Sequence record: OZ346228.1
Length of the DNA stretch: 64,000 nucleotides
Direction: 5' to 3' (one strand)
From: a phage
In this document: piece by piece, positions 1 to 38,303 of the stretch
Numbering within the stretch: the first letter of the stretch is position 1
How the letters are laid out: each line of letters opens with the position of its first letter
Notes under the pieces: model-generated
The model's database searches: none
The model's input: only the letters and a program-made list of their open reading frames with translations
Told to the model about the DNA's origin: nothing
Translations under genes and position numbers: made by a program

Positions 1-1463
1 ACTGTGGATGTGCAAACGCAGTAGATACTTTTGCAAACAATGAGAAATTTATCCGTAGCTACGGAACAGTGGTCCTTGCAATGGACAACGATGCGGCTAA
101 CGAGGTAGAGAAGCAAAAACACGTTATCAAAGGTGTTGAAGCCACACATAATATTGCAGCATTTTTGATGGCTGACAACGTTTACCACGTGGAATATCCT
201 GGCGAGGTAAACGACCCTGATGGTGTAAAAGATATCCGTGACATGCTGAAGGCTAAAAAGCTGGAAGATATTGTAAACATGTTCCGGCATCCTGTTAAGT
301 ATGTGCCTGATGCTGTGTCGGATTTAGAAGACTTCTCTATCGAATCTTTGCGGAAAAAGACTTCCAACGGGGTAGATATCAGCGCAGAGTTTCCAAAACT
401 GCAAAAAATGCTAAAAGGCTTGCACAAAGGGACACTCGTAATGCTTACAGGTCCATCAGGAGGTGGTAAAACAACTGTAGCCAAAAAACTGGAACACTGT
501 ATTGCAAGATACCTAATGGACCCGACATGTCCAAAGGCCGATGACTACGAAGAGGATGATCGTCTATGCATGATTCATCTTGAGGAGGACCCAGAGGAAG
601 CAATTAACTCCTTGTATGCAAACCAGTTAGGGTTTGATGTTAAAGAGTTTGTTGAAGATCCTAGCCAGTTTTTAACTGATCAAGAACATGCAGAGATTCA
701 CCAATCATGGGCAAAAGCTGGAAAAATCAAAGTGTTCAAACATTTCGGGTCTATTCCAGTGGACGAGTTGATTACCAAGCTTAAGCAAATGGTCTGCCTG
801 TACCATTGTCGCTATATTGTGCTGGATCACCTGTCTATGGTAATTTCAGGGCTTAATGTTAAAGATGAGCGAAAAGAACTGGACATGGCTATGACTCAGC
901 TGGCTGCGTTTTGTAAGCAGTTTAACGTGTTTATCTTGGTGATCGCTCACCTCAAACGTACAGAGATTGTGCCTCCTAAGGACAAGGATGGTAACCCATT
1001 ACCTTTCTGGTATCCTGTGCGAAAAGAGAATTTGCGAGGATCGGCTGGGCTTGAACAGTTGAGTTGGGTAGTCATAGGTGTCGAGGCCGAAGAAATGGTG
1101 GATCGTTCTCGTGGGCGTGTCCGTCTGGTAGGTCTTAAAAACCGTCCAGCAAAAACTTTAGGTATTGCTGACACTTTAGTTATGGACCCACATACAGGTA
1201 AGTTCCATGATGCCAGTAATTGGTACTGGGACAAAGAAATGCAGATGTTTACAGACGGAGAAGGTGGGGAGGTTGTTTGGAGACCTCAGGCCATGTTTGA
1301 GGACCAAGAGCATGCAGTTGTAGAAACACCTATGGGCAAGGTTGTAGCCGATAAGGTTGTAACTCCTACTATTAAGCCTGTTGACACGCAGGAAGACCTT
1401 CAGTACGATGATCCATCCTCTGATCCGGTCCCCGGTTTTGAGGATGATGAAACACCTTTTTAA
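1..1463 (+). CDS. DNA primase/helicase, T7 gp4-like (5' end upstream of window)
   Basis: Frame open from nt 3 with no start; TOPRIM-like VVLAMDNDAAN, Walker A LTGPSGGGKTT, helicase-like body; acidic C-terminus ending DDETPF. Confidence 0.85.
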   Translation, partial: CGCANAVDTFANNEKFIRSYGTVVLAMDNDAANEVEKQKHVIKGVEATHNIAAFLMADNVYHVEYPGEVNDPDGVKDIRDMLKAKKLEDIVNMFRHPVKYVPDAVSDLEDFSIESLRKKTSNGVDISAEFPKLQKMLKGLHKGTLVMLTGPSGGGKTTVAKKLEHCIARYLMDPTCPKADDYEEDDRLCMIHLEEDPEEAINSLYANQLGFDVKEFVEDPSQFLTDQEHAEIHQSWAKAGKIKVFKHFGSIPVDELITKLKQMVCLYHCRYIVLDHLSMVISGLNVKDERKELDMAMTQLAAFCKQFNVFILVIAHLKRTEIVPPKDKDGNPLPFWYPVRKENLRGSAGLEQLSWVVIGVEAEEMVDRSRGRVRLVGLKNRPAKTLGIADTLVMDPHTGKFHDASNWYWDKEMQMFTDGEGGEVVWRPQAMFEDQEHAVVETPMGKVVADKVVTPTIKPVDTQEDLQYDDPSSDPVPGFEDDETPF

Positions 1464-1521
1464 TGTTTAACAAAGAGTGGGAGGGGTAGTACAACCGCCT
1501 CCCCTTTAAGGAGAACTGTAT

Positions 1522-3945
1522 ATGAGCATGTGGTCGTTCGACTTTGAGTCATCCGGTTTGCTGGAAGACCCAGATCTTTATTATCACTGCGGCCTGTTTA
1601 AAGAGCTGAATAAGAACCGTTTTATGCTGTTCCTTCCTCTAAATGACCGCACACACTACTCCGAGGAGGATATAGAAAAGGCTAAGAACTTCATTCTGGC
1701 AAAGAAAACTCTTTATAAAGATTTTGAAGTTCGCATAGCAGATTTTTCAGAGTTGGAAGGTTGGCTTACAGGAAATTCTGACTGGTCACCAACAGCTTTG
1801 AACTGCCATAACTGCTACAGTTATGACTTTATGCTGATGGAAAGATTATCTGGTATTCATTTTGATATGTTCCGTGATCCTAAGTGTATGGGGACTATCA
1901 ACGATCACCAGGTTAACCTGTTTGATACGTTGGCGATGAGCCGAATCTTGTGGCCTGATCGCCCTTTACCAAAAGGTTGTCCGGACTCTGTATTCAACCC
2001 GGTTACTAAGAAAATGCAGCCTGTTGGTCCTCACGGCCTTATGGCATGGGGCTACGCCCTTGGTAACCAGAAAGTTCAAATTGATGACTGGCGCGATCTT
2101 CCGTTATGGAAGTATGTGGATCGTGTATTTGAGGACGTTATCATCCAGGAGCTGCTCTGGAAAGAGCTGGTAGCGGAATCAAAAGGTGTATTCTACGGCA
2201 AATCTGACATGCAGAACTTTATGTACGATCCTGCCAAAGAGAAGCCGAAAGGGTTCAAGAAGATCACCTGGAAGAACGCATTACGTCGAGGCATGTTGCA
2301 GCACTTCCTGATGGAGCTGCAGGCCCGTCAGGGTGTATACTTCGACATAGATGGGGCTATTGCTTTACGTGACCGCTGCGATGCGTGGATGAAAGAGATC
2401 GCTGATCGTGTTGAACCACAACTGCCTTTAAAAGAGCTGTCAATGTCTCAGCGGCCCAAGTTCCCTGAAAAGCCGTTTAACCAAGATGGGACAATCTCTA
2501 ATAATGGTTGGAAATGGTTAAAAGATAAGCTTGGCTATCCTGTGGACATGAGTGCTTTAGAGTTCAAAGCCCCACCTAAGCGAGCATTTACCTCTACAGG
2601 AGATGTCAGTAAGATGGGGATAAAATGGTGTGAAGAGATGGGCTGCAAAGACCACGATAAGATGGCTGATTTCTTGAGAGGTTATATTAAGGGCACCTCC
2701 ACACCACAACCTTTACCTAAAGAGCTGATGGATCAGGCAATAAGCGATCTGCAACAGAAGCGAATGCCTGACTGCAAGATACCTATGAAAATCAGCAATC
2801 AGGACGACATTAAGCGATACCTGATCAGTGCTGGTTGGCTTCCGACAATGTGGAGAACTAAGGATGTAACTAAGGACAGCAAGAAGAAAGCTCTACCTGA
2901 TGCAGATGTTGATGCACGAGTATATGCATACATGGACGAGCTTTTAGAGTCAGAGTATTGTGACCTAATTATCAACTTCTGGAACAAAACTGATGCTAAG
3001 TTTCAGACAACAGTGCACAAGTTCCGAAGCTTTCCTAACTCCGAAAGGATTAAAAAGGAAGTGTTCGGGAAAATACGCAGAAAAGCCAGGGCACTTATTA
3101 CTTCTCCGCAACTGAAAGATACGTTTGGACACCTATGTCCGAATCTTGAAAAATTGAACGGAGAGATGGCTAAAGATATCGTCTTGTGGTTATCATTGCG
3201 AAACCGCAGATCGGTCCTTGATCCAATCAAGGAGGATAAGGTTGATACTGGTCTTCTTAATCACCCACGTTTGAAGATTGACCATAAGCTTCCTGCTAAA
3301 AGCTCTGGATTAACAAACACTTCCCGACAGAAACACAGTATTTGTGCAAACATGCCTAAACCATCTCCTAAAGTGGTTATGGGTAAAGAGATGCGTAGCT
3401 TGTGGGGTGTTCCTCCTGGATACTTTGAGATCGGTATTGACGGGTCCAACTTAGAGCAGCTTATCGGGGCTTGGGGTGCCTTTGAGTTCGACAACGGCTT
3501 GTACTATGATGTTGTAAGTAACGGGGACGCACACCAAAACAATGCTGAGGCATATACAAAAGTAGCAGGCAGAGAGGTGTCTCGTAACGACGGTAAACCT
3601 ATCACGTATGGGGTTATGTACGGGGCACAAAAAGATAAAGTTGCAGATATGCTGGATATCTCCCCAGAGTTGGGGCAAAGGGTGATCGATGCACTTTGGG
3701 ATGCCAACCCAGGTCTTAAGGGGCGCAAAGAGGATCTGGAGAAATTCTGGGAAGCAACAGGTAAGAAGTTTATCTACTCTTTTGATGGTCATGCTATCTG
3801 GACCCGATCTAAACACTCTTTACTTAATGCATACCAACAAAATGGCGGCGCATCGTTGTGTGACTTAGTTGGGATACTCATGCACCATCAAATGGTGAAG
3901 CGTGGGTGGTACGATGAAGGTGTTCGTCGTATTATCTATTACCAT
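1522..3945 (+). CDS. DNA polymerase family A (T7 gp5-like), exon 1
   Basis: RBS AAGGAGA; N-terminal exo motif FDFESSG, HGLMAWGYALG region, motif A IDGSNLEQL, motif B KPITYGVMYGAQ; frame stops 2 codons after ..IIYYH, before any HDE motif C. Confidence 0.85.
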
Positions 3946-4787
3946 AAATAACATTGTGGCTTCGTGCAGTGATGCACGTCGAAAACCTCTTTAATTGACG
4001 GGAAGGCTAAGTTGACTTTTACACCTAAACATGGTAAAAGCTCAATATGCTAATCCGCAGCGAAGACTAAAGGGGTGTAGTTAAAATGGCTAGATCAGTT
4101 GAGTATCACGGATATACCGTGTTTGATGATGGAACAATACCTTTATCGAAACGTGATCATACAACAATGTTTTGTTTTGATAATGGTCGAGGTTACCTTT
4201 GCGTAACCATGTTCATCGAGGGGAAGCAGTGCACAAAAGGTGTCCACCACTTGGTTGCTGAATGCTTTGTATCAAACCCTGATCCTGAAAGGCTCACATG
4301 GGTGAACCATAAGGACGGAAACAAATACAACAATGCATACTGGAACCTTGAATGGACCACCCCTGGTGGAAATATCAAACACGCTTATGATAATGACCTC
4401 AGAGTAAGGCCAGTCGGTGAGTATAATGCCAACGCTGTACTGACCGAGGATGAGGTAACGGAGATTTGCGAACTGTTACAAAGTGGTTTACGACAATGCG
4501 AGATTAGGGATCTTGGGTATCCTTATGAGACGGTCAGAGCCATAAAGCAAAGAAGACAGTGGAAACATATCTCTAAAAACTACACCTGGTAGTAACGTTC
4601 AGAGACTATCGAAAGCATAGCGCCAACATAAATTGGTGCGAAGAAGCGAGTAGAGTAGACCAGCAAGTGCGGTCGAAATGGGAGGTGCCTTGGTAACAAG
4701 GTAGTGAGATAGTCCGATCCATACAGGAAACTGTATGGCTGTGCACGTAATGGTGCGGGGTAGCTTAACGACCTACCTGAACTATTG
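3946..4787 (+). mobile_element. Group I intron interrupting DNA polymerase before motif C
   Basis: Exon 1 ends on U at 3945; AGACTA (P7 5' strand) at 4064-4069; GAGATAGTCCG (P7 3' strand) at 4706-4716; P9-like hairpin CCATACAG-GAAA-CTGTATGG at 4719-4738; terminal G at 4787; joining gives ..YYH-DEYQLQV. Confidence 0.75.
4086..4592 (+). CDS. HNH homing endonuclease, intron-encoded
   Basis: HNH motif WVNHKDGNKYNNAYWNLEW; lies inside the proposed intron between P7 5' and P7 3' elements. Confidence 0.8.
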   Translation: MARSVEYHGYTVFDDGTIPLSKRDHTTMFCFDNGRGYLCVTMFIEGKQCTKGVHHLVAECFVSNPDPERLTWVNHKDGNKYNNAYWNLEWTTPGGNIKHAYDNDLRVRPVGEYNANAVLTEDEVTEICELLQSGLRQCEIRDLGYPYETVRAIKQRRQWKHISKNYTW

Positions 4788-6603: not shown

Positions 6604-6666
6604 TGCTTGACAACAGTCATAGGGCCTACTATAATGGCCCTATCAAAACGAAAGGGGACCACAGCA

Positions 6667-10399: not shown

Positions 10400-10825
10400 A
10401 TGATCTATGAAATGCCAAAACTGATTCGTGACGATGCCCAAAACGCCCACACCTTTATCATGGGCAAGCGCATGGATATTATTTGTCATAAAGATTTCTG
10501 GGAAGGTAGTTACTTCACAGAATATTTTGGTAAACTGGATAATGGTCTGCTGATCCAGTTCTACACCGATGCGGAAAACAATATCTGCTGGGAGTTCGAA
10601 ACTGAAGATATCCATAAACTTTTCACCTTCCTAGGTATTAAGGTTGAGGCCAAGTTTGAAGAAGGCGAGTGCGACGATTGTGGATTCTACGAGGTAACAG
10701 ATTTCTATCTCCCAAGTGGTGAGAACCTTTACTATGAAAGCCACTTCGGCAACTCAAATATGCCACAAGGTTGGGATGAGTTTTTTGAAATTGCGGAAGA
10801 GGAGCTGACATACCGTGATTATTGA
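10400..10825 (+). CDS. hypothetical protein, coupled to macro-domain gene
   Basis: RBS CCGGAG; stop overlaps GTG start of next ORF. Confidence 0.55.
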   Translation: MIYEMPKLIRDDAQNAHTFIMGKRMDIICHKDFWEGSYFTEYFGKLDNGLLIQFYTDAENNICWEFETEDIHKLFTFLGIKVEAKFEEGECDDCGFYEVTDFYLPSGENLYYESHFGNSNMPQGWDEFFEIAEEELTYRDY

Positions 10826-12774: not shown

Positions 12775-13100
12775 CAGAGATCATCATTTCAACTGCAGGG
12801 TATGTATTCCTGACAATCATTGCACTGGCTATTTTGGTGACAGTGTATGGGTTTGTTATCCTTCCTATCCTTGAGACATTTAGTTTGTGTCGGTGTTGGA
12901 GAAAAGCTTACGGTCCACAACCATGGAAGGACTGGCCCCACCTGGTGCGCTTAGCGTTCTCTTATGCTTACGATCACTCCAGTAGTGCATGCATAACCGG
13001 ATACCACGCCCACAACTGGAGCTGGGAAGGGTTGAGGAAATGGAATGTTACAAAGACCATACCTCTGCGCATGTACAAACCTAAAAACAAAGACAACTGA
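12771..13100 (+). CDS. hypothetical membrane protein
   Basis: RBS GGGGAGG; N-terminal hydrophobic helix, Cys/Trp-rich tail. Confidence 0.5.
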   Translation: MTEIIISTAGYVFLTIIALAILVTVYGFVILPILETFSLCRCWRKAYGPQPWKDWPHLVRLAFSYAYDHSSSACITGYHAHNWSWEGLRKWNVTKTIPLRMYKPKNKDN

Positions 13101-13104
13101 TACT

Positions 13105-13620
13105 TGAAAATTCCTGGCATATCAAGTATAAGGGGGATTTCTAAAATGGATTTCCTCCTTTTGATATTTCACCGGGCTGGATATTTTAAAATTCTTAGAA
13201 AATCAGAAAATGGATCGAAAACTAAAATGGATTTTTCAGAGTAGGCGCGACAAGCTGAATAACTCATCCTATCGTTTGCACCATATTCCAGGCCACCATT
13301 ATAGATTTCCCACACATGCTAACCTCTCCCTACTAGAACTTCCTCCACTTACCCTTGACCTTCTATGGTAACAATCTAACCGCTATCTTGAAGTTGCGGT
13401 GCAGCTTTCCAGGTACTCGATCTACTTTTCATTTCAGGGCTTGGATTTTCTGAAAATTTTTCTCGATAAATTTCTCAGTACTCGATCTGTTTTTCGTTTT
13501 CTGAATCGGATTTTCTGGAAATCGTTCCGGCTCTCAACCTGAAATTTTTGGGGACGAAATCGATTTTTCGTTTTCAGAAATGGATTTTTAAAATTTCTAT
13601 ATGGGAATATTTTAGTGGAT
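13105..13620. repeat. Non-coding repeat region (iteron-like direct repeats)
   Basis: No credible ORF; AAAATGGATTT x3, GTACTCGATCT x2 inside two ~55-nt direct repeats, GGATTTTCTGRAAA x2. Confidence 0.5.
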
Positions 13621-13704
13621 ACTGTTTTATAGGAAATTGTTACGGAGGGTAATTAGCATGCTAATTAAATTTATTAAATGCGAGGAGTTCTCATTTAGAA
13701 TTTT

Positions 13705-13870
13705 GAATGATAATCATTCTCGTTTGCAGAATAACGGGCAGGCCCGGTGATTGTCTCCCGGCCCCTGTTGCCCCGGCTTGTTATTATAGTATCACACAGG
13801 ACAAAGAAAGCAAGGACTTTTTGCATAAATTTTTAAATGATAATGATAACCGTTCTCATTTTATGCAGCG
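13705..13870. promoter_or_regulatory. Two Fur-box-like palindromes, each followed by a GC-rich tract
   Basis: GAATGATAATCATTCTC (13705-13721) matches about 15/19 of the E. coli Fur box GATAATGATAATCATTATC; second copy AATGATAATGATAACCGTTCTCATT at 13845-13870. Confidence 0.35.
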
Positions 13871-14283
13871 CCCATCCCCGGTGGTTGTCTCCCCCGTCAC
13901 CGGTGCCTGCCGTCCTTTCGATATGTATATTGTGCCACCTGGCGGGGCCGCTGTCAACACTTTTCAAAAAATTTTTCTAACCTGGTGCGCTAACCGTTGC
14001 AACCTGGCGGGGCCAGCCTGGCAGGACCTAACTGACCAGGTAGGGGAGAATGAAGGCTTGTAAACCTGGTGGGCCTATGCTACAGGATAGGTAACAATTG
14101 AAGAGGAGGTACAAAAATGATATGATCCCCCTGGAAAATGTAGCTATTAATGACTCTGAGGCTATCGCCCTGGTTGAAAAGGCTATGGCGGGAGCGTTGG
14201 AACATAAAGAAGAGTACGAAAATGGTGGTTAACCTGGCGGGGGCGGCAGGTGGATTCTATCATAAAAATAATTTAAAATAGTA

Positions 14284-14313
14284 GTTGACAACAAGGTTAA
14301 TCATGGTATTATT
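14284..14313 (+). promoter_or_regulatory. sigma70-like promoter
   Basis: TTGACA -35, about 17-nt spacer, ATTATT -10. Confidence 0.45.
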
Positions 14314-14362
14314 ACCCTACAAGGTGAACAACACCGCACTAACCAGTAAAGAGGATAAATTT

Positions 14363-14560
14363 ATGAACGCATACGGGATCAAAGTACGTCGCAACACTCG
14401 CCAGGTGGTCACCAATCAAGTGATTTGCCGGGTGGATGTAACCATCAACAACGGGCAAGGCCTTTATAAATTTCGTCGCGGTCATAGCTATACCCTGCAA
14501 CAGCTTAATCGTTGCGCCCTGACAAAAGGTCAGATCAACCACTGGTTTAATAAAAAATAA
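14363..14560 (+). CDS. hypothetical protein
   Basis: RBS AAGAGG; downstream of promoter. Confidence 0.55.
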   Translation: MNAYGIKVRRNTRQVVTNQVICRVDVTINNGQGLYKFRRGHSYTLQQLNRCALTKGQINHWFNKK

Positions 14561-14564
14561 GTAT

Positions 14565-14593
14565 TGACATACAGTCAGACACCAAATACACTA
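14565..14593 (+). promoter_or_regulatory. sigma70-like promoter (weaker -10)
   Basis: TTGACA followed at 17 nt by TACACT. Confidence 0.4.
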
Positions 14594-14624
14594 AAAGCAC
14601 AAAAGACACTAAGAGGATAAAATC

Positions 14625-14810
14625 ATGAAAACCACTACCTTTAATTTTGATAATGCAGACTTTTCTTTTTCTGATGTCAAGAACTGCCGCCGTGATCGTG
14701 GATTTTACAAGGCTTATAATCTGGTGGGCCTGGACGATGACAATAATTTGCACGAAGTAGCTGAGATCCAGCTTGACAGATTGGACGGGAAAGTACTAAA
14801 AACTTATTGA
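14625..14810 (+). CDS. hypothetical protein
   Basis: RBS AAGAGG. Confidence 0.55.
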   Translation: MKTTTFNFDNADFSFSDVKNCRRDRGFYKAYNLVGLDDDNNLHEVAEIQLDRLDGKVLKTY

Positions 14811-14811
14811 G

Positions 14812-14858
14812 TTTATTTTTAGATGGCCTTGACACCAGGGCCATCAATAAAGTAAACT
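14812..14858 (+). repeat. Conserved post-stop intergenic element, copy 1
   Basis: TTATTTTTAGATGGCCTTGACACCAGGGCCATCAATAAAGTAAAC; 7-bp stem GATGGCC/GGCCATC around TTGACA. Confidence 0.6.
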
Positions 14859-14890
14859 AACCACAGTTGAGCGGAAAAGGAGGCTTAAAG

Positions 14891-15010
14891 ATGAGCACTA
14901 CACGCCAGCACACAAAGGTAACCATCATCGTTTGCATCATTGGGTACATCCTGGCGCAAATGTTGATGGGTAGCGCCAACGGTGTCGCAAAATTTTTCTT
15001 AAACTTTTAA
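14891..15010 (+). CDS. small hydrophobic peptide (39 aa)
   Basis: RBS AAAGGAGG; predicted TM helix VTIIVCIIGYILAQMLMG; below the ORF-track cutoff. Confidence 0.4.
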   Translation: MSTTRQHTKVTIIVCIIGYILAQMLMGSANGVAKFFLNF

Positions 15011-15038
15011 TTGACAAGCTAACTTAAATCGATATAAT
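15011..15038 (+). promoter_or_regulatory. sigma70 consensus promoter
   Basis: TTGACA, 16-nt spacer, TATAAT. Confidence 0.65.
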
Positions 15039-15089
15039 AAGCACATAAACGGGAAAACTTCCCAGAACACACAAAAGGAGAAAAACACC

Positions 15090-15431
15090 ATGACTACTAT
15101 GACCGCCTCAGAAAAAGCTATGCAGATCGCTGAACTGAAAAAACAGATCGCAGACCTTGAGAATAAGATCGATAACTTTGAAATCGACGAGGACAAGTAC
15201 GACGAAAACTATGATGAATGGTTAGACGAGATCTACGGCGAAATTATGATCGGAAACATTTCTTTTCTTCCGTCGCGTATCCTCAAGGAGCTAGATCCTA
15301 TCGCTTACCGCTGCGGATTTAGCGACTACATCGACAGCCTGGATATTGAGGACGATGAAGAATACCAGGAATTACAGACAGAGTTAGAAGAAGCAAAAGA
15401 AGAGCTTGCGGAGCTGGAAGAAAACGAGTAA
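15090..15431 (+). CDS. highly acidic protein (candidate DNA mimic)
   Basis: RBS AAAGGAG; about 36 of 113 residues D/E; first gene behind the consensus promoter. Confidence 0.65.
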   Translation: MTTMTASEKAMQIAELKKQIADLENKIDNFEIDEDKYDENYDEWLDEIYGEIMIGNISFLPSRILKELDPIAYRCGFSDYIDSLDIEDDEEYQELQTELEEAKEELAELEENE

Positions 15432-15432
15432 G

Positions 15433-15479
15433 CTTATTTTTAGATGGCCTTGACACCAGGGCCATCAATAAAGTAAACT
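15433..15479 (+). repeat. Conserved post-stop intergenic element, copy 2
   Basis: Near-identical to 14812-14858. Confidence 0.6.
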
Positions 15480-15520
15480 TTATACTGTTAACACTGAACT
15501 AATGCATAGGAGTTAAAACC

Positions 15521-15766
15521 ATGGCAGCACTAATCACCAAATATTATGCCCCTACCAACACCAAAAGCGCCCGTATCATGGTAAAAGGCTTCGGACGTAA
15601 AAAGGTGTACACCTGGGATTATGCCTTAGACACGGAAGACAACTACACCAACGCAATGACCGATTTTATTAATGAACTAAATAAGCAGATCTTGACAAGT
15701 TATAAAGTGACCGATATTGCTTATATAGGTGAAGGCGGGATCTGTTTTGTAGGCATTGTGAAATAG
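15521..15766 (+). CDS. hypothetical protein
   Basis: RBS/start ATAGGAGTTAAAACCATGGC, identical 20-mer to that of ORF 19764. Confidence 0.55.
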   Translation: MAALITKYYAPTNTKSARIMVKGFGRKKVYTWDYALDTEDNYTNAMTDFINELNKQILTSYKVTDIAYIGEGGICFVGIVK

Positions 15767-15767
15767 T

Positions 15768-15812
15768 TATTTTTTCGGTGGTCCTGGTTGCAGGGCCATC
15801 TATAAAGATAAT
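15768..15812 (+). repeat. Diverged copy of the post-stop intergenic element
   Basis: TTATTTTTTCGGTGGTCCTGGTTGCAGGGCCATCTATAAAGATAA. Confidence 0.3.
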
Positions 15813-15840
15813 TTATTAACACCATGAAAGGAGAAAGTAC

Positions 15841-16194
15841 ATGATCAGCGGGGCAAGTTTTATTATTGGCGCTATTGCTACGGCTTTAATTGTAAATAAG
15901 ATCCAGGATAAAAAGGAAAGAGGAAGTACCGCCCTTGCAGAATATCCATTTTGGGCATTCAACGATAACGAAGATTATATTATAAAGTATAAAAATAAAG
16001 AAGGTGACCAAGTAACACCGCGACCGATCCCGGCTTACAAAATGCAGGAAACACTATACCGCCTGGAGGCGGGTGGCGCAAAAATTGTAGACTTTTGGGG
16101 ATACGACCACACAGATCAGGAAGTTATAAAGCGCCGTATCCGGGCTATTCAGGCCAATATTGAAGTTAGCAAGGGGGGAATATATGAAAATTAA
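15841..16194 (+). CDS. hypothetical protein with N-terminal TM helix
   Basis: RBS AAAGGAG; hydrophobic N-terminus. Confidence 0.55.
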   Translation: MISGASFIIGAIATALIVNKIQDKKERGSTALAEYPFWAFNDNEDYIIKYKNKEGDQVTPRPIPAYKMQETLYRLEAGGAKIVDFWGYDHTDQEVIKRRIRAIQANIEVSKGGIYEN

Positions 16195-16381
16195 TTTCGA
16201 GAAAATTGTAAAGCGCCCTCATGATTCCGAAGAGCTGCCAGAACGCCGCCAGCGTAACAATAAACTGAATAAGCCAAAAAGGTTTGGGAAGATCTGGCGT
16301 AATCATTATGATCGTAAATTGCCCGGCCTACTTTTGGAACGTGAACGACAGGCAGAACGATACCGCCATAAAGACAAATAA
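16184..16381 (+). CDS. small basic protein
   Basis: RBS AAGGGGGG; R/K-rich; overlaps upstream ORF by 11 nt. Confidence 0.45.
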   Translation: MKINFEKIVKRPHDSEELPERRQRNNKLNKPKRFGKIWRNHYDRKLPGLLLERERQAERYRHKDK

Positions 16382-16390
16382 CAACCAACG

Positions 16391-16418
16391 CCCCGCCATT
16401 GTGCGGGGCTTTTTATTT
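16391..16418 (+). terminator. rho-independent terminator
   Basis: CCCCGC-CATTGT-GCGGGG then TTTTTATTT. Confidence 0.55.
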
Positions 16419-16538
16419 CTATCCTACGAATAGCGCCCCTGGTTGGCCCTGTAAGCGCCAAAAAGGCCCCCACCTATGCAATCGCCCCTTTAACCTGAAA
16501 ACATCGCCCAGGGCCGTTTCATGGCGTTAAAAATATCA

Positions 16539-16566
16539 TTGACATCGTCAACAGGTTAGCTATACT
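16539..16566 (+). promoter_or_regulatory. sigma70-like promoter
   Basis: TTGACA, 16-nt spacer, TATACT. Confidence 0.6.
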
Positions 16567-16598
16567 AACCACATCAAAGAGAGAAAGGAGTAAACGCC

Positions 16599-16859
16599 AT
16601 GCGTAAATTAAAAAATTTTGATAAAGTTGATGTTATCCTGAATAATTTTTACTACTGCAACAACAAGGCTATTTGGTGGCGTGATAGTTCCACCGATAAA
16701 GTCAGGGCGCGCTTTCTTCAGGGGCACTGGCAAGGCCGCCCAGTGATTAAAATCATGGGGCAATCGGTAGCGTTTAAAAATTGCCGCCGTGTTGATGACG
16801 TTGAGGAGATTTTAAACATTTTGCGCCACAATAATTTAAAAAATAGTGTTGACAAGTAA
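16599..16859 (+). CDS. hypothetical protein
   Basis: RBS AAAGGAG. Confidence 0.55.
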   Translation: MRKLKNFDKVDVILNNFYYCNNKAIWWRDSSTDKVRARFLQGHWQGRPVIKIMGQSVAFKNCRRVDDVEEILNILRHNNLKNSVDK

Positions 16860-16876
16860 GCCTCAATAAGTATACT
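16849..16876 (+). promoter_or_regulatory. sigma70-like promoter
   Basis: TTGACA, 16-nt spacer, TATACT; overlaps 3' end of upstream ORF. Confidence 0.6.
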
Positions 16877-16933
16877 TAAACACACAGGCGGGAAAACTTC
16901 CCGCCACTAACAAAGAAAATAGGAGAAAATATC

Positions 16934-17557
16934 ATGACCACCGTTAACATTACCGCAGGTTACAATTTATCTTTCGACGTGCTGACCGACGAACAAAAAG
17001 AAAAAGCCGTTGAAATGGTCCGCGAAAGAGAAGAACACAGCGGGGATAACTTTTTTGCAGAAAGTGTAATTGAATACTATAAAGAATATGTTTTTCCAGA
17101 GTATGGCCTTGAAGATACCGAAGTACATTGGTCAGGCTTTTGGTGCCAGGGTGACGGCGCGTCAATCAGTGCTGAAAACGTGGATTTAGAAAAATTTTTA
17201 CGTAAAGTAAAGGCCCTGACCAAGTTCCGATCAATTCGTCACTTGTTCGGCACAATGCACGATGGCGAGTTATCAGCCAGTGTTGAACGCGACAAGTACA
17301 GCCATTACAGCCATGAAAACACTGTAAGCGGGTACATTGATACCACTTGGCTAGATCTGACCGCCAAACAAGAAAACAAAGTGGAAGACCTGGAAGAACT
17401 GATCACCGAGACGGTACGGGAGCTATCCCGCAAGGTTTACGTAGACCTGGAGGAGGCCTATCTAGAACAGTTCACCGCAGAAAACCTGATCGGCCTTATC
17501 GAGGCCAATGATTGGCGGTTTGATGTCGATGAATATGGTGAGATGACTTTTTCATAA
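16934..17557 (+). CDS. hypothetical protein
   Basis: RBS ATAGGAG; 207 aa. Confidence 0.6.
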   Translation: MTTVNITAGYNLSFDVLTDEQKEKAVEMVREREEHSGDNFFAESVIEYYKEYVFPEYGLEDTEVHWSGFWCQGDGASISAENVDLEKFLRKVKALTKFRSIRHLFGTMHDGELSASVERDKYSHYSHENTVSGYIDTTWLDLTAKQENKVEDLEELITETVRELSRKVYVDLEEAYLEQFTAENLIGLIEANDWRFDVDEYGEMTFS

Positions 17558-17565
17558 ATAAAGTG

Positions 17566-17593
17566 TTGCAATAACCTAAAAACCTGCTATATT
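17566..17593 (+). promoter_or_regulatory. sigma70-like promoter
   Basis: TTGCAA, 16-nt spacer, TATATT. Confidence 0.45.
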
Positions 17594-17647
17594 AAAACTC
17601 AAGGGGGCAAGACGTTTGCCCCAACACAAAACAAAGAGGATAACATC

Positions 17648-18028
17648 ATGAAAAACACTACCAAGGCTATTGACACCGTTATGTTTAACCTGGTTACATT
17701 CCGTGAAGATATGAAAGATCTTCCTCGTGAAACAGTGTGCGACCATATCGAAAACTATCGCAAACTAATCAAAGAGTTGCCTTTAAAACGTGATCAATAT
17801 GCGGCTAACGCCATGCTTAATGCCATGATCAAAAAGATGATCCAGTGTGATTTAACCCTGGCCTATGATTATGCAGGCGGTCGTTTTGCAGTATACAATC
17901 AGCCCGTGCCCGGTATGAGCACCACCGAAGAATTGCACGCGCTCAATCTAAAACAAGACGTGTGGGATAGTATGCCTCGCGTGGTGGTATGGGTAGAAAG
18001 CGGAAAGATTTACGGCGATAATTTTTAA
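17648..18028 (+). CDS. hypothetical protein
   Basis: RBS AAAGAGG. Confidence 0.55.
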   Translation: MKNTTKAIDTVMFNLVTFREDMKDLPRETVCDHIENYRKLIKELPLKRDQYAANAMLNAMIKKMIQCDLTLAYDYAGGRFAVYNQPVPGMSTTEELHALNLKQDVWDSMPRVVVWVESGKIYGDNF

Positions 18029-19149: not shown

Positions 19150-19196
19150 TTTATTTTTAGATGGCCTTGACTCTAGGGCCATCAATAAAGTAAATT
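19150..19196 (+). repeat. Conserved post-stop intergenic element, copy 3
   Basis: TTATTTTTAGATGGCCTTGACTCTAGGGCCATCAATAAAGTAAAT. Confidence 0.6.
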
Positions 19197-23125: not shown

Positions 23126-23341
23126 TCAGTCCAGCGGTTCATCCTCTACTTCACTGAAATCAATGTTCATGGTCTCTTCCCAACCATCGATCTCAGCACA
23201 AGAGTGGAGTTCTTTAGGGTTTACTCCTAAAGCCTCAGCAACAGAGTCTATATTTAACACCTCTGGCAGGTATGATTCATCAAATTCAAGGTAAATCAGG
23301 CCACGAGTGTTGTCAGCTCCACCAAATATTTCTATCTTCAT
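23126..23341 (-). CDS. hypothetical acidic protein
   Basis: RBS GAGGAG; last gene of leftward array. Confidence 0.5.
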   Translation of the reverse strand: MKIEIFGGADNTRGLIYLEFDESYLPEVLNIDSVAEALGVNPKELHSCAEIDGWEETMNIDFSEVEDEPLD

Positions 23342-23462: not shown

Positions 23463-23675
23463 TCATAGTCTACCACCTCTGAACTCTTCGTGCTCAGGCA
23501 TAATAGAGAACCAGATATCTACGATGTCCTCCCACGTCAGGTCATCAGCCTCAGGATCTGTCTGGGACGAAGATGAAGAGTCCTCAGAATCTAAGTTTTC
23601 CTCTTTAACTGGCTCATCCAAGGGACATATGGTCACTCCTTCGGATGTCTCTTCAGATGCATGTGTGTTGATCAT
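23463..23675 (-). CDS. hypothetical acidic protein
   Basis: D/E/S-rich ORF. Confidence 0.5.
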   Translation of the reverse strand: MINTHASEETSEGVTICPLDEPVKEENLDSEDSSSSSQTDPEADDLTWEDIVDIWFSIMPEHEEFRGGRL

Positions 23676-26106: not shown

Positions 26107-26435
26107 TAGTCTTTCTCCAGGTTCAAAGGTCCTAAGATTTCATATGCCAGATTAGAAGTTACCAGAGGGTCTTCTGCATCTTTAGTATTGTACCACCCGT
26201 GAATAACCAGAGTCCCACTTTGTTTCATATCCAACTGGAACTGTTCTGCAGTTTCCTCATCCAGCTCCAAGATTTCCATAAGGTATTTGATGTTAGGAAG
26301 GTATGCAGCTGTTACAGTTCCCTCCACCAAACCTTCGGGCCAACCTACATCCGGATGACAAGTAGGAACCAGGTTGGTCAACTTAATGGTGTACGCTTTT
26401 TCTGCACGAGCCTTCAGTAACGGGTCAATCTTCAT
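26106..26435 (-). CDS. hypothetical protein
   Basis: Translationally coupled array. Confidence 0.5.
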   Translation of the reverse strand: MKIDPLLKARAEKAYTIKLTNLVPTCHPDVGWPEGLVEGTVTAAYLPNIKYLMEILELDEETAEQFQLDMKQSGTLVIHGWYNTKDAEDPLVTSNLAYEILGPLNLEKD

Positions 26436-26785
26436 TATTCGTCCTCCTCTTCGGTGCCTGCTTCCAGTAATAAGTTAAGAATATCTTCTGCACAAGGCTC
26501 ATAGAACTCTTGGCCTTCATTATCGATGATTTTGTAGTCATCTCCACGAATAATCAGGGGATCACTCTCAAAATTATCGAGACCTTTAACAACGACAACA
26601 CGATCGATTGCCATCATTGTAAGAACTTTATCGACATCTTCCTCTGCTACACCATACTGCAGCAGAATGTCTTTGGTAGGAGGAACAGCATCCACCACAA
26701 CGCCGTTACCAAAACCTTCTGGAAGTTTAGCTAAAATATCTTCCGGAACCACATTCACATCAAAACCGGTAATTTCTACTTTCAT
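26435..26785 (-). CDS. hypothetical acidic protein
   Basis: Translationally coupled array. Confidence 0.5.
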   Translation of the reverse strand: MKVEITGFDVNVVPEDILAKLPEGFGNGVVVDAVPPTKDILLQYGVAEEDVDKVLTMMAIDRVVVVKGLDNFESDPLIIRGDDYKIIDNEGQEFYEPCAEDILNLLLEAGTEEEDE

Positions 26786-38241: not shown

Positions 38242-38303
38242 TTGGCACCTCCTCTGCTTTCATTACGGCAATTATAACCAACTCAACAAAGCTTTGTCAA
38301 CAA

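What the first reader, a model, noticed from the sequence alone, without database searches (positions are those of the whole stretch)
15090..15431. Highly acidic first early gene, a candidate DNA mimic
About one third of its 113 residues are Asp or Glu and it follows the best promoter in the window. That composition, size and position resemble T7 Ocr-type anti-restriction DNA mimics, though there is no sequence similarity I can see.
Basis: inference. Interest (0 to 1): 0.5.

Follow-up and report, generated by a model that had tools for sequence, protein, structure and literature searches.

The report
Very acidic phage protein, function unknown
This is a real gene of an rV5-like E. coli phage for a small, extremely acidic protein from a very large, unnamed family found only in lytic phages; it is not related to the T7 anti-restriction protein Ocr, but it could still work in a similar way, and that can be tested directly.

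Summary
The ORF at 15090-15431 (+) is real: 113 aa, 36 Asp/Glu (31.9%), net charge -27. It is the most acidic ORF in the window and has a good ribosome-binding site and a consensus sigma-70 promoter. Two claims are overstated. The promoter ties with two others on the same strand, and the gene lies about 30 genes downstream of the DNA polymerase gene, so it is not the "first early gene".

The window is a Vequintavirus (rV5-like), and the protein is 100% identical to the one in phage Alma. It belongs to a huge unannotated family (at least 3,900 clusters at 50% identity) confined to virulent phages of Proteobacteria, SAR11 and Actinobacteria. The family has a roughly 50-residue conserved core whose confident AlphaFold model has no solved structural relative.

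It is not an Ocr or ArdA homologue by sequence or fold, and it sits beside a true Ocr in Proteus phage 309.

An Ocr-like function remains plausible but unproven:
- **For:** family members lie in early regions (confirmed by RNA-seq in PAK_P3). Negative charge is conserved. All 12 BASEL Vequintavirus phages plate almost normally on two type I restriction hosts, where lambda is cut about 10^5-fold.
- **Against:** Alma is still restricted by BREX, and phi92-like relatives that lack the family escape type I restriction too.

The parts
15011..15038 (+). Sigma-70 consensus promoter, TTGACA-16 nt-TATAAT
   Evidence: 12 of 12 hexamer positions match. It is one of three perfect sites on this strand. Function is inferred from the consensus only.
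15051..15063 (+). Small 5'-leader stem-loop, GGGAA-AAC-TTCCC, 12 nt after the -10 box
   Evidence: An identical 13-mer follows a second near-consensus promoter at 16890-16902. Its role is unknown; mRNA stabilisation or processing is a guess.
15075..15080 (+). Shine-Dalgarno sequence AAGGAG, 9 nt before the ATG
   Evidence: Read directly from the sequence.
15090..15431 (+). Coding sequence: 113-aa acidic protein (PHROG 9294; identical to PHAGEALMA_166 of phage Alma)
   Evidence: Homologues number at least 3,900 clusters at 50% identity.
15105..15173 (+). N-terminal amphipathic helix, residues 6-28, with a heptad of I13/L16/I20/L23/I27
   Evidence: AF2 model with pLDDT 89.9. Hydrophobic columns are conserved across the family. 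This helix is absent from the 64-71-aa members.
15189..15338 (+). Conserved family core, residues 34-83: acidic helix ED..DE..DE..DE, beta-hairpin, then two helices carrying S62-R-x-L-K-E-L-D-P-I-A-Y-R-C-G-F-S-D-Y80
15357..15422 (+). C-terminal polyacidic amphipathic helix, residues 90-111
15431..15479 (+). 49-nt repeat element that begins at the stop codon. It has a 7-bp stem (GATGGCC/GGCCATC) with a TTGACA box in the loop, followed by a -10-like TAAACT
   Evidence: A 98% identical copy lies at 14810-14858, directly after the upstream ORF. Degenerate copies lie at 15765 and 19160. The two good copies bracket the gene unit.

Best explanation
The gene encodes a small, soluble, extremely acidic, mostly helical protein made from its own host-type promoter. 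It belongs to a very large, unannotated family restricted to virulent phages. The functional unit is a roughly 50-residue core: one helix lined with acidic pairs, a beta-hairpin, and two helices carrying the near-invariant motif SRxLKELDPIAYRCGFSDY. In this phage the core is flanked by an N-terminal amphipathic helix and a C-terminal polyacidic helix, which probably pack together as an antiparallel hairpin.

My best reading is that it is an early host-takeover or counter-defence protein. It would bind, through its conserved core and its negative surface, to the nucleic-acid-binding surface of a conserved host protein. That makes it a competitive inhibitor of the DNA-mimic type. The leading specific target is type I restriction-modification. 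It works like Ocr at most; it is not an Ocr homologue.

Shown: the gene, its composition, the family, the predicted fold and the absence of known relatives, the early genomic position of relatives, and the type I-resistant phenotype of the carrier phages. Inferred: that it binds a host protein, that it mimics DNA, and what the target is.
For: - It is a real, conserved gene. PHROG 9294 matches at E=2e-53. A profile search finds 3,922 clusters at 50% identity, and at least 2,019 clusters at 90% identity.
- Acidity is a family trait: median 31% D/E and median net -27. At least 18 columns are 70% or more acidic, and basic residues are almost absent apart from K66 and R74.
- Relatives sit in early positions. 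They are gene 2-5 at the left end of four podovirus lineages, behind sigma-70 promoters or upstream of the RNA polymerase or replication genes. PAK_P3 gp86 has its own annotated promoter and lies inside the RNA-seq early region gp74-gp112. Metagenomic members lie in arrays of small genes of unknown function.
- Hosts range from Enterobacteria, Vibrio, Pseudomonas and SAR11 to Actinobacteria. The partner must therefore be universal, as DNA-binding enzymes are.
- The family is absent from plasmids and essentially absent from bacterial chromosomes, as expected for a tool of lytic infection.
- Phenotype in the BASEL raw data (PMC8594841). All 12 Vequintavirus phages have mean EOP 0.22-0.90 on EcoKI and 0.50-1.99 on EcoCFT_I. 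The five with site counts I read (Bas55-59) carry 9-15 and 4-6 sites. On EcoRI their EOP is about 1e-3 to 1e-4, and on EcoRV it is 3e-7 or lower. In the same assay lambda (5 EcoKI sites) gives about 1e-5, P1vir 6e-5 to 7e-3, Bas01 (3 sites) 1.3e-4, and Ocr-bearing T7 0.92.
- The window carries 6 EcoKI sites against 6.2 expected, so the phage is not avoiding sites.
Against: - No experiment links this gene to any phenotype.
- Phage Alma encodes the identical protein. It is still restricted 10- to 100-fold by Salmonella BREX, which plasmid-borne Ocr abolishes completely.
- The phi92-like phage PaulScherrer has no family member (hmmsearch at E<=10), yet plates at EOP 0.13-0.72 on EcoKI with 12 sites. 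Felix O1-like Bas63, N4 and the T5-like phages, none of which appears in the organism tallies or listed records of the family searches, also plate at EOP 0.8-1.1 on EcoKI. Escape from type I restriction therefore does not need this family.
- The family coexists with a true Ocr in Proteus phage 309.
- The most conserved positions are a specific, largely non-acidic motif that includes two basic residues. That suggests a defined protein-protein interface rather than generic charge mimicry.
- There is no structural similarity to any solved DNA mimic.
- I could not inspect model coordinates, so the geometry of the charges was not tested.
Confidence: 0.35

Rival explanations
1. It is a specific inhibitor or adaptor of a conserved host protein that does not work by mimicking DNA. 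The target could be RNA polymerase or sigma, a protease, a division protein or a nucleotide-metabolism enzyme. The invariant SRxLKELDPIAYRCGFSDY surface would be the binding site. The acidic helices would only provide solubility or oligomerisation.
For: The best-conserved columns are S62, L65, D69, P70, A72, Y73, C75, G76, D79 and Y80, plus the basic K66 and R74. The 64-71-aa members keep the core but lack both flanking helices. The gene sits among early host-takeover genes. It coexists with Ocr, and its carrier phage Alma is BREX-sensitive.
Against: Core-only members are still 22-27% acidic with net -11 to -12. Acidic columns are conserved inside the core as well: positions 39, 43, 46, 47, 67, 69 and 79. 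No candidate partner is indicated by any fusion or neighbour.
Confidence: 0.3
2. It has a role internal to the phage. It could be a small coiled-coil regulator, chaperone or scaffold for the phage's own replication, transcription switch or assembly, with no host target.
For: The gene lies in the same long co-oriented unit as the phage primase/helicase and DNA polymerase. It has amphipathic heptad helices, and automatic annotations call it a 'coil containing protein'. The core is unusually well conserved for an arms-race protein (about 50% identity between coliphage and marine members).
Against: The family occurs in unrelated phage types (myoviruses of 85-150 kb, T7-like podoviruses, actinophages) that share no common replication or assembly machinery. 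In podoviruses it lies upstream of the RNA polymerase or replication genes, among non-essential early genes. Paralogue number varies (two in Providencia phage PS3, none in the phi92-like phage checked). That pattern is typical of accessory genes.
Confidence: 0.2
3. It is a highly diverged true homologue of T7 Ocr (gp0.3).
For: Only composition, length and net charge are similar.
Against: Pfam gives no Ocr hit. hhalign gives probability 0.3%. tblastn is negative. The secondary-structure order differs and Ocr is absent from all fold-search lists. Both genes are present in one genome.
Confidence: 0.02
4. It is a chance ORF or a non-functional remnant.
For: None.
Against: There are thousands of homologues with a conserved core. 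The AF2 model is confident. A ribosome-binding site and a promoter are present. The protein is 92-100% conserved across more than 100 Vequintavirus genomes.
Confidence: 0.01

Closest known systems
T7 Ocr (gp0.3), a DNA-mimic inhibitor of type I R-M and BREX
   Same: Similar size (113 vs 117 aa) and net charge (-27 vs about -28), a helical structure, and a polyacidic C-terminus. Relatives occupy the same leftmost early cluster in T7-like phages. The carrier phages show the same restriction profile as T7: resistant to type I and sensitive to type III.
   Different: There is no sequence or predicted-fold similarity. This family has a strongly conserved non-acidic motif. It coexists with Ocr in Proteus phage 309. 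Its carrier phage Alma is BREX-sensitive, whereas Ocr blocks that BREX system. Whether it forms a dimer, as Ocr does, is unknown.
T7 gp5.9, an acidic coiled-coil DNA mimic that inhibits RecBCD (from my own knowledge)
   Same: Both are small, early, acidic, helical or coiled-coil phage proteins. The flanking amphipathic acidic helices here resemble that design.
   Different: gp5.9 is about 52 aa and lacks the conserved core. No similarity was detected in PDB sequence or fold searches. RecBCD as a target was not tested.
ArdA and KlcA/ArdB, the anti-restriction proteins of conjugative plasmids (from my own knowledge)
   Same: ArdA is acidic and works as a DNA mimic against type I R-M.
   Different: Those families live on plasmids and transposons. 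This family is absent from 72,556 plasmid records, apart from one mis-filed phage genome. Pfam gives no hit and there is no fold match.
PHROG 9294 / 9396 / 37123 and PAK_P3 gp86, uncharacterised early phage proteins
   Same: These are true homologues. PHROG 9294 matches at E=2e-53, and 9396 and 37123 match over the core at about 1e-10. PAK_P3 gp86 matches the family HMM at 8e-14, has its own promoter, and lies in the RNA-seq early region.
   Different: None of them has an assigned function, so the relationship names the family without explaining it.

Membership tests
Ocr (T7 gp0.3; Pfam Ocr family) | Detectable sequence homology to Ocr | tested here: not met
   Pfam scan at E<=0.1 gives only coiled-coil noise. 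hhalign of the family profile against the Proteus phage 309 Ocr gives probability 0.3%. tblastn with two Ocr sequences finds nothing in the window at E<=1.
Ocr (T7 gp0.3; Pfam Ocr family) | The Ocr fold | tested here: not met
Ocr (T7 gp0.3; Pfam Ocr family) | About 115 aa, roughly 30% acidic, very few basic residues | tested here: met
   113 aa, 31.9% D/E, 9 K/R, net -27.
Ocr (T7 gp0.3; Pfam Ocr family) | Blocks type I R-M and BREX in vivo | not testable with these tools
   Only indirect evidence exists. Carrier phages plate at EOP 0.2-0.9 on EcoKI and EcoCFT_I, which is consistent. Alma, with the identical protein, is restricted 10- to 100-fold by Salmonella BREX, which is inconsistent for BREX.
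DNA-mimic proteins (a functional class, not a homology family) | Surface carboxylates arranged like the phosphates of B-DNA | not testable with these tools
The sequence alone shows acidic pairs every 4 residues along helix 34-47 (ED..DE..DE..DE) and an almost fully acidic solvent face on helix 90-111.
DNA-mimic proteins (a functional class, not a homology family) | Binds the DNA site of a DNA-binding protein and competes with DNA | not testable with these tools
   This needs pull-down or competition assays, or complex prediction.
ArdA / ArdB-KlcA anti-restriction families | Sequence homology, and carriage on conjugative elements | tested here: not met
   Pfam gives no hit. The plasmid collection gives no genuine hit.
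PHROG 9294 (uncharacterised phage protein family) | Full-length profile match | tested here: met
   E=2.3e-53, residues 1-113 aligned to profile positions 1-119 of 127.
Early (host-RNAP-transcribed) phage genes | Transcribed early in infection | tested here: inconclusive
   A consensus sigma-70 promoter lies directly upstream. The homologue PAK_P3 gp86 lies in an RNA-seq early region. I found no transcript data for any Vequintavirus, and rV5 carries sigma-70-like promoters across the whole genome.

The most novel reading that the evidence does not exclude
This gene is the coliphage representative of a previously unrecognised and very abundant family of DNA-mimic anti-restriction proteins with a new fold. 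The family spans thousands of clusters in lytic phages of Proteobacteria, SAR11 and Actinobacteria. It would account for the type I-specific restriction resistance of Vequintavirus phages that has gone unnoticed in the published BASEL data.
Probability: 0.15. Interest if true: 0.75.

Novelty: new variant of a known kind. Interest (0 to 1): 0.45.

Why it matters
Small acidic early proteins such as Ocr, gp5.9 and ArdA are a main way that phages and plasmids disarm DNA-targeting defences. Each known example has its own fold, so sequence searches cannot find new ones. This family is large, well conserved, has no solved structural relative, no Pfam or NCBIfam model and no informative name in any source. 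It also sits where anti-defence genes sit. If it inhibits type I R-M or another universal DNA-binding enzyme, it would be one of the most widespread phage counter-defence families. It would also explain why rV5-like therapeutic phages ignore type I restriction while remaining highly sensitive to types II and III. If it does not, it is still a compact, conserved, easily expressed protein whose partner would reveal a common step in lytic takeover. The deciding experiments are simple plating assays with phages and strains that already exist (the BASEL and Durham collections).

Tried and rejected
- **Family libraries.** Pfam, NCBIfam and PHROGs scans of the protein and of 40 family members gave only coiled-coil noise and PHROGs of unknown function.
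- **PDB sequence search.** A profile search found only occludin-like or GCN4-like coiled coils at E>=0.04.
- **Fusion partners.** Twenty longer relatives were scanned. The only extra domain was one Kyanoviridae Gp96 domain of unknown function; several large marine proteins had tandem cores. None was informative.
- **Literature.** Searches for the motif (DPIAYR and variants), for locus tags, and for links between Vequintavirus and Ocr or DNA mimics found nothing.
- **Plasmids and bacterial genomes.** A search for leading-region or prophage copies found essentially none.
- **Other acidic ORFs in the window.** These rival candidates (23463-23675, 23126-23341, 26435-26785 and others) all fall in PHROGs of unknown function.
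- **Natural knock-out.** The phi92-like phage PaulScherrer lacks the family but still escapes EcoKI. This weakens the link between gene and phenotype but does not settle it.
- **Terminator idea.** I considered the hairpin after the gene as an intrinsic terminator and rejected it, because no T-run follows it on the + strand.

Full report
**What is there**

The window is part of a Vequintavirus (rV5-like myovirus) genome. Positions 14000-18000 are 99.3% identical to Escherichia phage vB_Eco_Alma and 93-97% identical to more than 100 other records. The ORF at 15090-15431 (+) exists as described. It encodes 113 aa with 36 Asp+Glu (31.9%), 9 Lys+Arg and no His, giving net charge about -27 and pI 4.05. 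It is the most acidic of 178 ATG-started ORFs of at least 60 aa in the window. AAGGAG lies 9 nt upstream of the ATG. In Alma the gene is PHAGEALMA_166, annotated 'coil containing protein', and the Alma protein is 100% identical to this one.

**What was overstated**

The upstream promoter TTGACA-16-TATAAT at 15011-15038 is a perfect consensus match. So are the sites at 6607 (17-nt spacer) and 11724 on the same strand, and one on the other strand at 38271. That is 4 sites against 0.08 expected by chance.

The gene is not the first of anything. The co-oriented block begins before the window with primase/helicase and DNA polymerase (69-3951) and continues to about 19.6 kb. In the curated relative Bas59 the gene is bas59_0104, 30 genes after the polymerase bas59_0074. 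The rV5 genome paper treats the stretch as one unit, genes 10-1-238-164, with 33 sigma-70-like promoters spread across the genome (PMC3606486).

**The family**

The protein matches PHROG 9294 (unknown function) at E=2e-53. It also matches PHROGs 9396 and 37123 over residues 38-101. Pfam and NCBIfam give only coiled-coil noise.

Homologue searches show a conserved core of about 50 residues: YDxxLDExYGxVxIxGxxFxxSRxLKELDPIAYRCGFSDY. The near-invariant positions are Y41, S62, L65, E67, D69, P70, I71, A72, Y73, C75, G76, D79 and Y80. An exhaustive profile search finds 3,922 cluster representatives at 50% identity with E<=1e-3, and 1,780 with E<=1e-10. A second search finds at least 2,019 clusters at 90% identity. 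None has an informative name or a Pfam domain on the core.

Acidity is a trait of the whole family. The median is 31% D/E and the median net charge is -27. In a 167-sequence alignment at least 18 columns are 70% or more acidic, while basic residues are conserved only at K66 and R74. Members of 64-71 aa consist of the core alone and are still 22-27% acidic.

**Structure**

AlphaFold2 run with the family alignment gives a confident model (pLDDT 89.9). Its elements are helix 6-28, helix 34-49, a beta-hairpin at 52-59, helices 61-68 and 70-83, and helix 90-111.

Helix 34-47 carries acidic pairs every four residues (ED..DE..DE..DE), and the solvent face of helix 90-111 is almost entirely Glu. I could not access the coordinates, so whether these charges trace a DNA-like pattern remains untested.

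**Not an Ocr homologue**

hhalign of the family profile against a genuine Ocr gives probability 0.3%. tblastn with Ocr finds nothing in the window. Proteus phage 309 carries both a true Ocr (66% identical over 92 aligned residues to T7 Ocr as I recall its sequence) and a 71-aa family member, 1.1 kb apart in its early region.

**Where the family lives**

Members occur in these groups:
- Vequintavirus, and large myoviruses of Vibrio, Klebsiella and Serratia.
- Pseudomonas PAK_P1/PAK_P3-like phages.
- T7-like or phiKMV-like podoviruses of Proteus, Providencia, Pseudomonas and Pelagibacter.
- Actinophages of Microbacterium, Gordonia and Clavibacter.

The family is absent from 72,556 plasmids, apart from one mis-filed phage genome. 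A motif-seeded scan of 185,579 representative bacterial genomes found it once, in a metagenome-assembled genome.

In podoviruses the gene lies in the leftmost early cluster:
- Providencia phage PS3 gp02 and gp05, each downstream of an annotated sigma-70-like promoter.
- Proteus phage 309 gp4.
- Lepni01 gene 4 of the 8 genes before the RNA polymerase gene.
- HTVC109P gene 3.

PAK_P3 gp86 is a member with its own annotated promoter. It lies inside the early region gp74-gp112 defined by RNA-seq (PMC4933390). An early, accessory role in lytic infection is therefore well supported by comparison. No transcript data for Vequintavirus were found.

**Phenotypes of the carrier phages**

[quoted passage not shown] Its raw data show that this holds for types II and III only.

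| Phage (sites for EcoKI / EcoCFT_I) | EOP on EcoKI | EOP on EcoCFT_I | Other systems |
|---|---|---|---|
| 12 Vequintavirus phages, Bas48-59 (9-15 / 4-6 for Bas55-59, the five whose counts I read) | 0.22-0.90 | 0.50-1.99 | EcoRI 2e-4 to 2e-3; EcoRV 3e-7 or lower |
| Lambda-vir (5 / 1) | 8e-6 to 9e-5 | 0.01-0.03 | not relevant here |
| P1vir (11 / 2) | 6e-5 to 7e-3 | 0.0075-0.13 | not relevant here |
| Bas01 (3 / 6) | 1.3e-4 | 8.6e-3 | not relevant here |
| T7, with Ocr (4 / 0) | 0.92 | 0.71 | type III: below 1e-13 |

The window has 6 EcoKI sites against 6.2 expected from composition, so there is no site avoidance. Vequintavirus phages therefore do evade type I restriction specifically, which is the Ocr signature. 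The genetic basis has not been assigned.

- The phi92-like phage PaulScherrer (12 EcoKI sites) plates at EOP 0.13-0.72 on EcoKI, yet has no family member in any frame. Felix O1-like Bas63, N4 and the T5-like phages also plate at EOP 0.8-1.1 on EcoKI, and none of them appears in the organism tallies or listed records of the family searches.
- Alma, with the identical protein, is restricted 10- to 100-fold by the Salmonella BREX island, and about 10-fold more when ariAB is deleted. Plasmid-expressed Ocr abolishes that BREX defence (PMC11341690).
- No other ORF in the window is annotated as anti-restriction. Several other acidic small ORFs of unknown function are equally untested candidates.

**Interpretation**

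I commit to this reading: an early accessory protein that binds a conserved host protein, most likely at a nucleic-acid-binding surface. That makes it a DNA-mimic-type competitive inhibitor (confidence 0.35). Type I R-M is the leading specific target, at about 0.15-0.2.

The main rival (0.3) is a specific inhibitor that does not mimic DNA and acts through the invariant motif. A role internal to the phage is less likely (0.2), given the spread across unrelated phage types and the variable copy number. True Ocr homology and a spurious ORF are effectively excluded.

**Novelty and verdict**

The gene has been seen before: it is annotated 'hypothetical' in more than 100 genomes and sits in PHROGs. 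Neither it nor its family has been characterised or named. It is not a member of any known anti-restriction family. If it is a mimic, it is a new fold of a known kind of protein.

Interest is moderate at 0.45. The lead is cheap to test, the family is very large, and the BASEL data hold an overlooked phenotype. Against that, the link between this gene and that phenotype is only a hypothesis, and there is concrete counter-evidence for the BREX half of the Ocr analogy.

Noticed in passing
window 13100-14280: A stretch of about 1.2 kb is poor in ORFs and rich in repeats, just upstream of the small-gene array. It holds 47-nt units at 13403, 13468 and 13542 (spaced 65-74 nt), a 17-mer TGCCACCTGGCGGGGCC at 13933, 13998 and 14228, and GC-rich hairpin-like segments. 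It has no tRNA or Rfam hit, is unannotated in Alma, and is probably the 'non-coding' box of the rV5 paper. It could be an origin, a regulatory region or a source of non-coding RNA.
   Followed up: partly
window 14810-14858, 15431-15479, 15765-15813, 19160-19183: A 49-nt repeat element starts exactly at the stop codons of two adjacent genes and brackets the acidic gene. It has a 7-bp stem (GATGGCC/GGCCATC) whose loop contains a TTGACA -35 box, followed by a -10-like TAAACT. No T-run follows it, so it is not a classical terminator. It may be a promoter combined with an RNA-processing site.
   Followed up: partly
window 15051-15063 and 16890-16902: The same stem-loop, GGGAAAACTTCCC, lies 12-13 nt downstream of the -10 box of two strong promoters. 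This suggests a shared 5'-leader element.
   Followed up: partly
window 14625-14810 (junction near 14763-14769): Compared with Alma, the window lacks 684 bp (L001 6765-7448). The deletion fuses the N-terminus of PHAGEALMA_164 to the C-terminal tail of PHAGEALMA_165 and leaves a 61-aa hybrid ORF.
   Followed up: yes
published data (PMC8594841, S1 Data and S5 Table): All 12 BASEL Vequintavirus phages and the three phi92-like phages are almost unrestricted by two type I R-M systems. The eight whose site counts I read (Bas55-62) carry 9-15 EcoKI sites. All are severely restricted by the type II systems and by at least one of the two type III systems. The paper's text does not comment on this type I-specific escape.
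   Followed up: partly
proteins P0207, P0126, P0133, P0137, P0146, P0097, P0099 (marine metagenomes): These proteins of 211-837 aa carry two tandem copies of the family core. They also contain many repeats of an AETFGAE-like motif and an EF-hand-like DRNKDGKIS segment, and most end in a C-terminal transmembrane helix. None has a significant Pfam match. The repeated motif looks like a set of protease cleavage sites or a modular linker.
   Followed up: no
L002 1683-1886 and 2931-3131 (Providencia phage PS3); L003 2464-2679 and 3796-4140 (Proteus phage 309): PS3 has two paralogues of the family and no Ocr in its first 8 kb. Proteus phage 309 has one family member plus a true Ocr.
   Followed up: partly
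window 23463-23675 (-), 23126-23341 (-), 26435-26785 (-), 10400-10825 (+), 16934-17557 (+): Several other small ORFs are markedly acidic (22-29% D/E, net -16 to -25). Four were scanned and fall in PHROGs of unknown function; 16934-17557 is PHROG 5162, also unknown. They are equally untested candidates for the type I escape.
   Followed up: partly
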